NCBI GenBank assembly: GCA_951406725.2
Contig: OX597827.1
Location: 68,386,001 to 68,450,000, forward strand
Source of the DNA: Octopus vulgaris
Lineage: Eukaryota
Direction: 5' to 3'
Length of the DNA stretch: 64,000 nt
In this document: in pieces, positions 2,080 to 63,993 of the stretch
How the letters are laid out: the number at the start of each line of letters is the position of its first letter
Position numbering within the stretch: the first letter of the stretch is position 1
The notes under the pieces: generated by a model
Databases searched by the model: none
Told to the model about the DNA's origin: nothing
Seen by the model: the letters and a program-made list of their open reading frames with translations, nothing else
Program-made: the position numbers and the translations under genes

Positions 2080-2231
2080 TATATATATATATATATATAT
2101 ATATATATATATATATATATATATATATATATATATATATATATATTATATATATATATATATATATATATATATATATATATTAAAAAAGAAAATACGC
2201 ATGCTTACATAGTTTTAATATAATTTTTAAT

Positions 2232-2266
2232 ATATCGACCGGTTTCGCTATCGCTATTCATGATAT
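2232..2266 (-). ncRNA. Minimal type I hammerhead ribozyme-like motif (A3-U8 variant) inside a TA-flanked inverted repeat (2183-2337)
   Basis: Reverse complement reads atatc-ATGAATA-gc gata gc-GAAA-ccgg-TC-gatat: 5-bp stem I, 2-bp stem II, palindromic stem III, GUC site. Confidence 0.55.
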
Positions 2267-2812
2267 GTTTAGCGAAACCGGTCGATATATTAAAAATTAT
2301 ATTAAAACTATGTAAGTGTGCGTATTTTCTTTTTTAAATTTCTTATATATATATATATATATATATATATATATATATATATATATTGTTCGCGTCATAG
2401 GAATTTAGAAACTTCGAACAAGCGCGAAATATTTTTTTTTAAACAGTGATACTCAACGCAGGCAAAGCTTTAAAAAAAAGTAGCGCATAAATATTGGGTA
2501 AAAAGCCCTTTTGATAGAAAAATCGGAGGCTATAAGTTTTAGCATAGAACTTGTTACACGATTTCTTATTTGTCATATCTAACCCATAAATCCAAAGATT
2601 TTATTTGAGCTCGTAAATAAGCAATTGTGTATTATCAGCGTATTTTCAAGGGTGATAAAGCAACTTCCTTTTTTCAACCTTTCATCATTAATAAAAAGTA
2701 ACAAAATAGAATAAATTTTTTTAAAAAAAGATGCAAAGGAGAAATTTTGAATAATAACGAAAAACAAAACATTATCTTATTTTTGCTTGATTATTATTTT
2801 TTTTTTTTGCAG

Positions 2813-3067
2813 GTGTTTGTAGAGGTGCCTTCAATACAGTGTTCGATTGGGTTCGGAGACGACCAGATAATCGATTTATTTTCAATACCTACTTCTTCAG
2901 AGGTAACCGATACTGGATGTATGAGAATCATGCGAATCGAACACGATACGGGGACCCGCTCATTATTTCACGTGAGTGGAAAGGTGTGCCAAGCGATATT
3001 GATGCATATGTACACATCTGGTTCTACAACCATCCCGGAATTGTCGACGTCACCTATTTCTTTAAAG
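2813..3067 (+). CDS. MMP21: MMP21-like, first hemopexin-domain exon
   Basis: Polypyrimidine tract + tgcag|2813, donor 3067|gtatgt, frame-compatible with the previous exon. Encodes (G)VCRGAFNTVFDWVRR...TYFFRGNRYWMYENHANRTRYGDPL...IDAYVHIW...YFFKG. The FDW, YEN.NNRTRYGDP and DA.VHIW motifs and the absent hinge match vertebrate MMP21 as I recall it. Confidence 0.93.
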
Positions 3068-3510
3068 GTATGTATTAATTAAGAACCCTAAGTTAAATGT
3101 TTTTGAGGTGACCGGTAAGAAAGGTAACTTACTCCAACCACATAACTAAAAATATAATAAGATGAAACAAGTACTTTATTCGTTGAAATTGTTGTTCTTT
3201 AGGTTTGACCGCAAGTCTTCTTTGATCAAGTATATTTATAATCAAACATGTTCGGAATTTGGCCCTCCATTCCGTCTGTTGCTCTCGTTTTCAAGGCGTG
3301 TATGGCAATTTCAGTACATCAGGTTAACGGAAACGTCGGAAAGTAAGGATATATTTCTCCTGCCCACAGCAATAAACCCGCTTACCCAAGCTACCTATTT
3401 AAAGCCAAGTATGACTTCAGCTTAGCCGCATAGACCTGAGACAAAATGTGGTCCTTTTATTCGCTTGTTCGTCCTTTATATTCCCAACTGCATATATGTA
3501 TATCGCAAAA

Positions 3511-3823
3511 GCGCAATGGCCCAGTGGCTAGGGTAGCGGACTCGCGGTCGGAGGATCGCGGTTTCGATTCCCAGACCGGGCGTTGTGTGTGTTTATTGAG
3601 CGAAAACACCTAAAGCTCCACGAGCCTACCTGGTAGGGGTTAGTGGTGACTCCTGTTGTACTCTTTCACCCCAACTTTCTCTCGCTCTTTCTTCCTGTTT
3701 CTCGAGTAACGCTGCGATGGACTGGCGTCCCGACCAGCTGGGGGGAACACATACGCCACAGAAACCGGGAAACCGGGGCCCATGAGCCTGGCCAAGCTTG
3801 AAAAGGGCGCATAAATAAATAAA
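3511..3823 (+). mobile_element. tRNA-derived SINE, head C + tail i
   Basis: gcgcaatggcccagtgg...ggtttcgattccc head and gcgatggactggcgtccc...ataaataaat tail; near-identical copy at 49156-49465. Confidence 0.8.
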
Positions 3824-61242: not shown

Positions 61243-62848
61243 TGTTGCCCTGCTCTCCTGTTGTTGGCCTGCTCTCCTGTTGCCCTTCTCTCCAGTTGGC
61301 CTGCTCTCCACCTGGCCTGATCTCCAGATGGCCTGCTCTCCAGCTGGCCTGCCCTGCAGCTGGCCTGCTCTCCAGCTGGCCTGCTCTCCAGCTGACCTGC
61401 TATCCAGCTGGCCTGCCCTCCAGTTGGCCTGCTCTCCAGCTGGCCTGCCCTCAAGTTGGCCTGCTCTCCAGCTGGCCTGCCCTCCAGCCGGCCTGCTCTC
61501 CAGTTGGGCTGCTCTCCATTTGTCATACTCTCCAGTTGACCTGCTCTCCAGATGGCCTGCTCTCCAGTTCGGCTGCTCTCCCTTTGACTTGCTCTCCAGC
61601 TGGCCCGCTCTCCAGCTTGCCAGACCTCCAGTCGGCCTGCTCTCCATTTGATTGCTATGGACTGCTCCAGTTGTCCTGCTTTCCAGCTGGCCTGCTCTCC
61701 AGTTGGCCTGCTCTCCATTTGATTGCTCTCCAGCTGACTAGCGTCCAGCTGACCTGCTCTCCAGCTGACCTGCTCTCCAGCCGGCCTGCTCTCTAGTTGG
61801 CCAGCCCTCCAGTTGGCCTGATCTCCAGCTTACCTGATCTCCAGCTGGCTTGCTACCCAGTTGGCCTGGCCTCCATTTGAAATGCTCTCCAGCTGGCCAA
61901 CCCTCCAGTTGGCCTGCTCTCCAGCTGGCCTGTCCTCCAGTTGACCTGCTCTACAGTTTCGCTTGCTATCCAGTTGGCTTGCTCTCCTTTTGGCCAGCCC
62001 TCCAGTTGGCCTGCTCCCCAGCTGGCCTACTCTCCAGCTGACCTGCTCTCCAGTTGTACTGCTCTCCAGTTTCGCTTGCTATCCAGTTAGCTTGCTCTCC
62101 TCTTGGCTTGCTCACTTGTTGGCCTGATCTCCAGCAGGCCTGCTCTCCAGTTGGTCTCCTCCCCAGCTGGCCTGTTCTCCAGCTGGCCTGCTCTCCAGTT
62201 GTCCTGCACTCCATTTTCGCTTGCTATCCAGTAGGCTTGCTCTCCTTTTGGCTAGGCTTCCAGTTAGCCTGGTCTACTCTCCAGCTGGCCTGCTCTCCAG
62301 TTGTACTGCTCTCCAGTTTCGCTTGCTATCCAGTTGGCTTGCTCTCCTGCTCTTTAGTTGTCCTGCTCTCCAGTTGGCTTGCTCTCCTTTTTACGTGCTC
62401 TCCAGTTGGTCTGCTCTCCTTTTGAACTGCTCTCCAGTTGGCTTGCTCTCCTTTTGGCCTGCTCTTATTTGGCTTGCTCTCCTTTTGACTTGCTCCCGAG
62501 TTTGCCTGTTCTTATTTGGCTTGCTCTCCTTTTGACTTGCTCCCCAGTTTTCCTGCTCTCCATTAGCTTACTCTCCTTTTAGCTTGTTCTCCTTTTAATT
62601 CGCTTTCCAGTTGGCCCGCTCTCCTTTTAGCTTGCTCTCCTTTTGACTTGATCTCCTTTTCGCCTGCTCTCCAGTTTGCTTGCTGTCGTTTTGGCTTGCT
62701 CTCCTTCTGGCTTGCTCTCCAGTTGGTCTGCTCTCCAGCTGGCCTTCTCTCCATTTGGCTTGCTCTCCAGTTGTCCTGTCCTCCATTTTGGCTTGCTCTC
62801 CTTTTTAGCTTGCTCTCCTTTTGATTGCTCTCCAGTTGGTCTGCTCTA
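61243..62848. repeat. GC-rich 16-bp minisatellite, ~100 units, consensus CTCCAGCTGGCCTGCT
   Basis: Direct periodicity; drifts to ctccttttggcttgct distally. Confidence 0.92.
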
Positions 62849-63403
62849 CATACATACATATATACATTTTTATGTGTATTGTACATTTGCTTATAGATAC
62901 ATATACATACATACTTGCATATATAACTGGCGCTACGTCGGTTATGACGACGGAGGGGTTCCAGTTGATCCCATCAATGGAACATCCCTCTCGTGAAATT
63001 AATGTGCAAGTGGCAGACTATTCTACAGACACGTACGACCTTAACGTAGTTCTCAGGGACAAGGCTGGCCCTTTCAAATATAGATACTACTTTTTTCTTG
63101 CCGGGTGAATGGAATGGAGCAACCTGAAATACAGGGTCATGCTCACGGACACAACGCGTCGCCGGGAATTGAACTCACGACTTTGAAATCGTAAGCCGAA
63201 TGCCCTAACCAACTAAGCCACGAGCTTTAACATATGTATATATATATATATATATATATATATATATATATATTCATATATATATATATATATATATATA
63301 TATATATAATTTCAATTTGAGGGTAAAATTAATTAATTATTAATCAATTTCACCAAGTATTCACTATGTAAAGGGACCATTTTAGGCGAATTCAAAATAT
63401 TAC

Positions 63404-63748
63404 ATTATATATAAGGGCTTAGTAAAATAAATTACTTTGCCACATACTGAACTCATTAGAAATAGCAGCTAAAGAAATTTCTTTAGCTATTTCTAATACT
63501 TAAAGAAGATCTCTCTCAGATAGTGTTTGCTCAAACCAACTCACAAAGGTATGGGGGAAAAAACATTAAAAAATCTTTGTGAGTTGGTTTGAGCAAACAC
63601 TATCTTTGTGAGTTGGTTTGAGCAAACACTATCTGAGAGAGATCTTCTTTAAGTATTAGAAATAGCTAAAGAAATTTCTTTAGCTGCTATTTCTAATGAG
63701 TTCAGTATGTGGCAAAGTAATTTATTTTACTAAGCCCTTATATATAAT
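63404..63748. repeat. Perfect 145-bp inverted repeat with a 29-bp tandem duplication in the spacer
   Basis: Arms 63404-63548 and 63604-63748; ctttgtgagttggtttgagcaaacactat at 63575 and 63604. Confidence 0.9.
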
Positions 63749-63932
63749 ATATATATATGTATATATATATATATATATTGATAAAAAAAGGTAAGACAAC
63801 AAAAGTAAGAAAGAGACCCCGATATTATGTAAATAGAGGAATTTATATGTAAATGTAATATGTGACAATTATTTGGTAGCCATGATAAAACTCCGAGTTT
63901 CGGATGCTTGGGCGGAAGTTTTCCGATGGCCG

Positions 63933-63993
63933 GATAACTGAAGAGATGGCGGTGTGGATTTCCACCTCGGCATCCGAAACACAGAGTTTTATC
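63933..63993 (+). ncRNA. Type I hammerhead-like motif with long stem II; partial inverted copy at 63877-63907
   Basis: gataa-CTGAAGA-gatggcggtgtgga tt tccacctcggcatcc-GAAA-cacagag-TT-ttatc. The inverted copy gives stem III as ctc-g-gag. Confidence 0.62.

What the first reader, a model, noticed from the sequence alone, without database searches (positions are those of the whole stretch)
2183..63993. Density and diversity of hammerhead-like motifs: about 12 full or near-full motifs from 6-7 families in 64 kb
Motifs lie at 2232, 20739, 21069, 26962, 35281, 47101, 48219, 48460, 50726, 51095, 54713 and 63933, with 3' halves at 17320 and 51305 (GAAA-gcgc-TA). Most have a different palindromic stem III (CCGG, CGATCG, CG, CTAG, GCGC), consistent with selection for dimeric folding. 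If this window is typical, the genome holds a very large unannotated ribozyme reservoir. That is extrapolation, not a measurement.
Basis: partly seen in the sequence, partly recalled or inferred. Interest (0 to 1): 0.7.

Follow-up and report, generated by a model that had tools for sequence, protein, structure and literature searches.

The report
Penelope hammerhead motifs crowd octopus genome
The motifs are real, mostly decayed copies of the small self-cutting RNA shape that Penelope-type jumping genes are known to carry at their ends; this genome, likely an octopus, holds an estimated 45,000 intact-looking ones, the window is about four times richer than average, and cutting is untested.

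Summary
All 14 sites exist. Only 4 of the 12 "full" motifs are intact; the rest are damaged, and one belongs to a family with a changed core. They fall into 8 repeat families. Shuffled and reversed controls give almost none, so the refutation test fails. Measured density: 16 intact motifs in 1.0 Mb sampled across the genome (95% CI 9-26; about 45,000 genome-wide), against 4 in this 64 kb. The window is therefore about 4-fold enriched, not typical. One subclass has 13,588 exact genome-wide matches against 16 for its reversed control. These are minimal type I hammerheads of Penelope-like element (PLE) terminal repeats, described in 2014 as widespread and likely dimeric. Two families are tied to PLE coding sequence here, one inside the window; five of the 7 tested show the PLE-type inverted 5' copy. 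Extras: all four Watson-Crick pairs occur at core positions 3-8; the most abundant family has U for the conserved A6; family A's repeat starts with a tRNA-like head. The scan noted the last two before on other DNA. RNA reads cover two families without cut-site ends. Known kind, unusually large census.

The parts
2232..2266 (-). Family D hammerhead, intact: A3-U8 core, 2-bp stem II, CCGG palindrome; lies in a fold-back element between TA runs
   Evidence: family sits about 300 nt after a PLE RT/endonuclease ORF in L168 and about 230 nt after an endonuclease remnant in L169
2272..2288 (+).
   Evidence: sequence
17184..17362 (-). Family E copy, 5'-truncated: 3' half only (CGATCG)
20738..20830 (-). 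Family E hammerhead: canonical core, about 68-nt extended stem II, CGATCG; first stem I pair broken in this copy
21068..21105 (-). Family H motif: U6 in place of A6 (family norm), extra A after A9, CG palindrome decayed to TG
26962..27007 (+). Family A hammerhead, intact; tRNA-like head starts near 26811
35276..35321 (+). Family A hammerhead, stems I and II damaged; element 35000-35409
46759..46956 (+). C-terminal 65 codons of a Penelope-type ORF, directly upstream of the family A repeat
   Evidence: 65-67% identical to RT-bearing proteins P0005/P0006
46981..47238 (+). Family A terminal repeat (pLTR): tRNA-like head, AAT run, hammerhead 47096-47141 with U16.1 changed to C, fixed 3' end
48185..48230 (-). 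Family A hammerhead, 5' stem I lost by deletion; element 48129-48343, head-to-head with the next copy
48460..48505 (+). Family A hammerhead, intact; element about 48406-48588
50726..50766 (+). Family B hammerhead, intact, CTAG palindrome
51095..51135 (+). Family B hammerhead, palindrome damaged; 369 nt after the first B copy on the same strand
51282..51318 (+). Family F motif (GCGC): 3' half plus damaged 5' core at a fold-back junction; element 51246-51415. Other copies have a U3-A8 core with C.C at 10.1/11.1
54711..54747 (-). Family C hammerhead: canonical core, CG, stem I reduced to 3 bp
63933..63993 (+). Family G hammerhead: bulged long stem II, interrupted palindrome CTC-N-GAG with one mismatch here; inverted arm from 63877

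Best explanation
The motifs are minimal type I hammerhead sequences carried by 8 repeat families that are shown (A, D) or likely (B, C, E, F, G, H) to be the terminal repeats of Penelope-like retroelements, and most copies are likely inert leftovers of 5'-truncated insertions. Shown: the motifs, their excess over controls, family membership, counts, position after a PLE ORF for A and D, inverted 5' partners, and better conservation of the core than of its flanks. Inferred mechanism: reverse transcription starts near the 3' end of the terminal repeat, so even the shortest insertion deposits a hammerhead, which explains density; many PLE lineages each evolved their own stems and palindrome, which explains diversity. 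In the parent element the two terminal repeats of a tandem transcript likely pair through the palindromic stem III into a double hammerhead that cuts slowly, likely with help from the element's protein. Solo copies lack a partner, and head-to-head pairs would fold back as double-stranded RNA, so they are predicted to cut rarely.
For: Controls: 0-2 hits per shuffled Mb, mean 0.5, 10 shuffles; 13,588 vs 16; 1,165 vs 0; 15,487 vs 0. PLE link: in 14 of 14 loci found with the window's ORF remnant (one is the window), the ORF end is followed by the tRNA-like head and the family A body; its relative P0005 has RVT_1 and aligns with GIY-YIG-bearing PLE proteins of this genome (36%, E 1e-41); family D follows a PLE ORF in 2 of 20 loci; a further U3-A8/CATG motif follows GIY-YIG in 5 of 20 loci. 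Inverted 5' partner: A 12/19, B 6/24, C 2/24, D 11/13, F 6/12, G 14/14, E 0/18; inverted 3' partner 0 in all. Non-CpG mismatch to family majority: core 39/1714 (2.3%) vs flanks 667/11437 (5.8%) over 7 families. Palindrome 12 of 18 when unconstrained. Literature: PMC4209133 (parts 1-2 of 4 read), PMC8557442 (passages), PMC11167929 (passages and second half of main text).
Against: No ORF link found for B, C, E, F, G, H in the loci held; E shows no inverted partner; H was not tested for one. Core-versus-flank difference is not significant in A, E, G taken singly (p 0.13, 0.11, 0.44), flanks include subfamily differences, and most copies were picked by similarity to the window. P0005 has no Pfam GIY-YIG hit. 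L301, two A copies 5 kb apart, holds no ORF. RNA reads show no pile-up of ends and no monomer-length circle junction. In Anolis, hammerhead mutants did not impair insertion in vitro (PMC11167929). The density sample was mostly hand-picked (15 in 800 kb) and the randomly drawn part gave 1 in 200 kb.
Confidence: 0.87

Rival explanations
1. The hammerhead fold is kept mainly as a docking structure for the PLE protein or as part of the reverse-transcription start region; cutting is dispensable. Compatible with the PLE origin, but a different function.
For: Family H, the most abundant of the 8 (22 of 44 copies in 1.0 Mb), has U6 in 96 of the first 100 listed matches while N7 varies freely. A6C cuts poorly in Mg2+ (PMC3088659 section 8; PMC7151607 passages). 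Catalytic mutants still insert in vitro (PMC11167929). No cut-site ends in reads.
Against: Positions 3 and 8 covary through all four Watson-Crick pairs, the other H core positions stay conserved (6/260 vs 144/1691 in flanks), and palindromic stem III is kept. These are marks of the active fold. Ordinary RNA-seq is poor at showing cut ends.
Confidence: 0.3
2. The copies form a working reservoir of ribozymes that cut host transcripts and shape gene expression.
For: About 45,000 intact-looking motifs; families A and H are abundant in RNA reads, and 82-94% of laid reads run on into unrelated sequence.
Against: 8 of 12 window motifs are damaged or variant; single min-HHRs showed no cleavage in vitro (PMC4209133); same-strand close partners are rare (0-3 per family); no end pile-ups.
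Confidence: 0.08
3. The families are non-LTR retrozymes, tandem arrays that replicate through circular RNA.
For: Type I hammerheads in short non-coding repeats; retrozymes are proposed PLE derivatives (bioRxiv 10.64898/2026.07.22.740005, part 1 of 5 read).
Against: No tandem array at any motif; tandem partners in 6 of 124 loci; long A copies carry an ORF; no monomer circle junction.
Confidence: 0.04
4. Chance matches of a loose descriptor in AT-rich DNA.
For: Rfam gives no hit; folding z-scores are weak, 1 of 8 below -2.
Against: Shuffled and reversed controls near zero; every motif belongs to a repeat family whose majority sequence rebuilds a complete hammerhead for 7 of 7 aligned.
Confidence: 0.01

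Closest known systems
Minimal hammerheads (min-HHR) in PLE pseudo-LTRs, Cervera and De la Pena 2014, PMC4209133 (parts 1-2 of 4 read; supplement file 2 searched, file 1 not searchable)
   Same: Type I layout, CUGANGA...GAAA...UH core, extra nucleotide after A9, G10.1-C11.1, short palindromic helix III, U3-A8 variant, bulged helix II, many consensus families per genome, mostly solo truncated copies, mollusc examples (Lottia, Crassostrea).
   Different: Counts there: about 2,000 plus 1,300 (Schistosoma), 4,000 (coelacanth), 9,000 (Xenopus), with another descriptor; here about 45,000 estimated. G3-C8 and A3-U8 cores, a family-wide U6 and 50-100 nt stem II were not in the parts read. No octopus in the searched supplement.
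Poseidon of Anolis carolinensis (PAc), PMC11167929 (passages and second half of main text)
   Same: Hammerhead in the pLTR overlapping the ORF start (family A has a 54-codon open frame through the motif); no RNA-seq ends at the cut site.
   Different: PAc cleavage was tested and is protein-assisted; no tRNA-like head in the passages read.
Schistosoma Sm-alpha / Sj-alpha SINE-like hammerhead elements (second-hand, passages of PMC6765202)
   Same: Promoter-like head followed by a hammerhead (family A).
   Different: Family A has a minimal motif and its long copies carry a PLE ORF, so it is a pLTR and not a free SINE.
A6C natural core variant, phage Bcep176 (PMC3088659 section 8; PMC7151607 passages)
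   Same: Natural substitution at position 6.
   Different: C in one phage locus there; U in a family of an estimated 60,000 copies here.
Lunse, Weinberg and Breaker 2016, small hammerhead variants of PLEs cleave as dimers (title and one-line account seen in PMC6765202; paper not held)
   Same: Dimeric cleavage of PLE hammerheads with palindromic stem III.
   Different: Unknown; it may already list octopus sequences or these core variants.

Membership tests
PLE minimal type I hammerhead | Type I order: stem I, core, stem II, GAAA, stem III, UH, stem I | tested here: met
   complete in the majority sequence of 7 of 7 aligned families
PLE minimal type I hammerhead | Conserved core with paired positions 3 and 8 | tested here: met
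   9 of 12 window motifs canonical, 1 A3-U8, 1 U6, 1 C16.1; family H departs at A6
PLE minimal type I hammerhead | Short palindromic stem III | tested here: met
   12 of 18 unconstrained hits; all 8 families
PLE minimal type I hammerhead | Extra nucleotide after A9 and G10.1-C11.1 | tested here: inconclusive
   Extra A in A, C, H, absent in B, D, E, G; G-C in A, C, D, E, G, H, A-U in B, C.C in F
PLE minimal type I hammerhead | Lies in a pLTR after a PLE ORF | tested here: inconclusive
   Met for A (14 of 14) and D (2 of 20); not shown for the other six families
PLE minimal type I hammerhead | Self-cleavage as a dimer | not testable with these tools
   Needs an assay; energy comparison uninformative
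Endonuclease-bearing Penelope-like elements | RT followed by C-terminal GIY-YIG | tested here: met
   RVT_1 plus GIY-YIG in 4 of 7 ORFs scanned; family A parent by homology only
Endonuclease-bearing Penelope-like elements | Inverted 5'-truncated copy next to the 5' end | tested here: met
   51 of 124 loci, none on the 3' side; E 0 of 18; H not tested
Non-LTR retrozymes | Tandem repeats each with a complete hammerhead | tested here: not met
Non-LTR retrozymes | Circular RNA monomers | tested here: inconclusive
   No such junction in three ordinary RNA-seq runs, about 6% of each read
Sm-alpha-like SINE (family A) | tRNA-related promoter before the hammerhead | tested here: inconclusive
   A/B-box likeness judged from recalled consensus; ARAGORN finds no tRNA; Pol III use untested
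Sm-alpha-like SINE (family A) | Non-coding element without its own ORF | tested here: not met
   Longer copies continue into an RT ORF
Rfam hammerhead families | Gathering score reached | tested here: not met
   0 matches in 64 kb

The most novel reading that the evidence does not exclude
This genome holds one of the largest hammerhead collections of any animal (about 45,000 intact-looking motifs plus about 60,000 with U6), and it is a natural mutagenesis of the core: all four 3-8 pairs, stem II from 2 bp to about 100 nt, and a U6 family that out-replicated its A6 relatives while keeping the rest of the fold. That would show that Penelope elements select the hammerhead fold with damped, metal-switched or protein-dependent cutting, and would make the open question of what PLE hammerheads do directly testable.
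Probability: 0.35. Interest if true: 0.55.

Novelty: new member of a known kind. Interest (0 to 1): 0.3.

Why it matters
The role of PLE hammerheads is unsettled (PMC8557442, PMC11167929). Families that amplified with altered cores are ready-made tests of whether cutting is needed. As host biology the copies are probably ordinary transposon debris.

Tried and rejected
Rfam e-value scan: the 150 listed of 531 matches were all microsatellite hits to miRNA models; gathering scan empty. Single-strand folding does not favour the hammerhead fold. Double-hammerhead energy equalled the dimer minimum in only 2 of 12 motifs, one with no stem I; uninformative. I first read family A as a free tRNA SINE and dropped this. 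I first read U6 at 21069 as decay and family F as lacking a 5' core; both were wrong. L301 was not a full-length element. A protein search with the family A frame found one Octopus sinensis protein holding the repeat, no PLE. PLE fragments beside B and C loci (L029, L039, L068) lie in positions that fit separate insertions. Sequencing-run search: no RNA holder on record was listed; three raw RNA runs of one study, species match to the window unknown, were laid. Splice-site-like words in long stem II loops were noticed, not tested. Paper searches listed no octopus hammerhead census and no A6U natural variant; an Octopus vulgaris repeat paper has 0 occurrences of 'hammerhead' or 'ribozyme' in its main text (PMC13282606, passages; supplements not opened). 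Lunse 2016 and supplement file 1 of PMC4209133 could not be seen and may bear on novelty.
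Full report
Observation. The window is AT-rich, microsatellite-rich animal DNA, placed at G000:C14:68386001-68450000 in a 2.8 Gb genome. Protein hits at 87-90% identity are named Octopus, so the organism is likely an octopus. All 14 sites hold hammerhead-like sequence. A strict descriptor gave 4 hits and 0 in 120 shuffles. A flexible one (any Watson-Crick 3-8 pair, optional extra base, long or bulged stem II, perfect palindrome) gave 4 (2232, 26962, 48460, 50726) against a mean of 0.02 in 50 shuffles. The other 8 'full' motifs are damaged or variant. 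Rfam has no hit at gathering score.

Families. Genome searches with window stretches returned the scored maximum of 40 candidates out of 743-2545 each. Aligned copies resolve 8 families: A (CG), B (CTAG), C (CG), H (CG, U6), D (CCGG, A3-U8, 2-bp stem II), E (CGATCG, long stem II), G (CTC-N-GAG, bulged stem II), F (GCGC, U3-A8, atypical stems). For the 7 aligned families the majority sequence is a complete hammerhead; the core is intact in 126 of 169 copies. Non-CpG mismatch is 2.3% in the core and 5.8% in flanks. This suggests selection on replicating lineages followed by decay of copies. Subfamily structure and the way copies were picked weaken this test, and three families are not significant alone.

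Density. I sampled 80 hand-picked and 20 randomly drawn 10 kb stretches; 20 more drawn stretches were not obtained. Intact motifs: 15 in 800 kb and 1 in 200 kb, pooled 16/Mb (95% CI 9-26), about 45,000 genome-wide (26,000-73,000); ten shuffles gave 0-2. The neighbouring 200 kb hold 3. The window's 4 in 64 kb is about 4-fold higher (P=0.02). Copies of the window's own families, intact or not: 44/Mb in the sample, 250/Mb in the window, inflated because the families were chosen here. Whole-genome exact counts agree: 13,588 for the CG-loop core pattern (no pairing test) vs 16 reversed, 1,165 for one A motif, 15,487 for one H motif. The sample shows 9 core/palindrome types, including U3-A8 and G3-C8. 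With stem III left free, 12 of 18 hits are perfect palindromes; 4 of the other 6 look like decayed or alternative parses of palindromic families.

Origin. GIY-YIG search gave 148 matches among 150 scored of 6,136 candidates; long ORFs carry RT plus GIY-YIG. A U3-A8/CATG hammerhead follows GIY-YIG in 5 of 20 loci. In the window, 46759-46956 encodes a PLE C-terminus directly before the family A repeat; in 14 of 14 loci for this peptide the same head and body follow. This agrees with earlier scan notes that family A is a pLTR with a tRNA-like head; those notes prompted the check. Family D follows a PLE ORF in L168 and L169. Inverted 5' partners occur in 51 of 124 loci and never on the 3' side, the arrangement described for PLEs (PMC8557442, passages). 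No ORF link was found for B, C, E, F, G, H.

Family H. It supplies 22 of 44 sampled copies, an estimated 60,000. By my count of the first 100 listed matches, position 6 is U in 96, A in 2, C in 1, G in 1; among the 96, N7 is U 42, A 24, C 19, G 11. RNA reads show the same: N7 varies and position 6 has no variant at 10%. The rest of its core is conserved. A6C is known to cut poorly in Mg2+ and better in Mn2+ (PMC3088659 section 8; PMC7151607 passages); U6 is untested here.

RNA. Three RNA-seq runs of one study gave 3,907-5,296 reads on A and 1,399-2,063 on H, equally on both strands, 82-94% running on into unrelated sequence, with no place where many molecules end. This fits passenger transcription. 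It is weak evidence on cleavage, and the same blank was reported for the Anolis element (PMC11167929).

Mechanism. Shown: sequence, counts, context. Inferred: 3'-start reverse transcription with heavy 5' truncation seeds a hammerhead in nearly every insertion; parent elements likely cut tandem transcripts as double hammerheads paired through stem III, slowly and with protein help (PMC4209133, PMC11167929). In the window only the two B copies lie close on one strand, and the second has lost its palindrome.

Verdict. A real, measured, large population of a known kind. The window overstates the density. Interest is modest and rests on the census and the core variants, which the scan has noted elsewhere in this genome.

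Noticed in passing
L087:7728-7778, L096:9555-9604, L120:6187-6237, L270:6631-6675: A hammerhead family with a G3-C8 core and ATAT palindrome, 3 copies in 1.0 Mb plus one near the window.
   Followed up: no
L101:9385-9479, L117:3418-3816, L130:686-764, L143:7386-7512, L266:4414-4496: Hammerheads with 45-100 nt stem II regions; L143 holds GTAAGT...CTAAT...TAG inside the loop, which looks like a short intron.
   Followed up: no
L241:406-4087, L242:787-4184: PLE with a 781-aa RT/GIY-YIG frame, an upstream 359-378 aa frame and tandem repeats in the 3' UTR; many intact copies, so likely recent.
   Followed up: partly
L244:1450-4354: PLE with a 637-bp inverted copy at 100% identity and a hammerhead-like 3' motif with C at position 4 and GTAC palindrome.
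   Followed up: no
window 26811-26914, 35000-35080, 46981-47060, 48265-48343: tRNA-like head of family A between the ORF stop and the hammerhead.
   Followed up: partly
window 18307-18786: 160-codon open frame resembling the C-terminus of an RTE-type LINE (recalled motif).
   Followed up: no
window 842-1380 and 43824-44363: Three tandem copies of a 183-184 bp SINE-like unit at each place.
   Followed up: no
window 61263-62847: Minisatellite of about 99 copies of a 16-bp unit.
   Followed up: no
   Followed up: no
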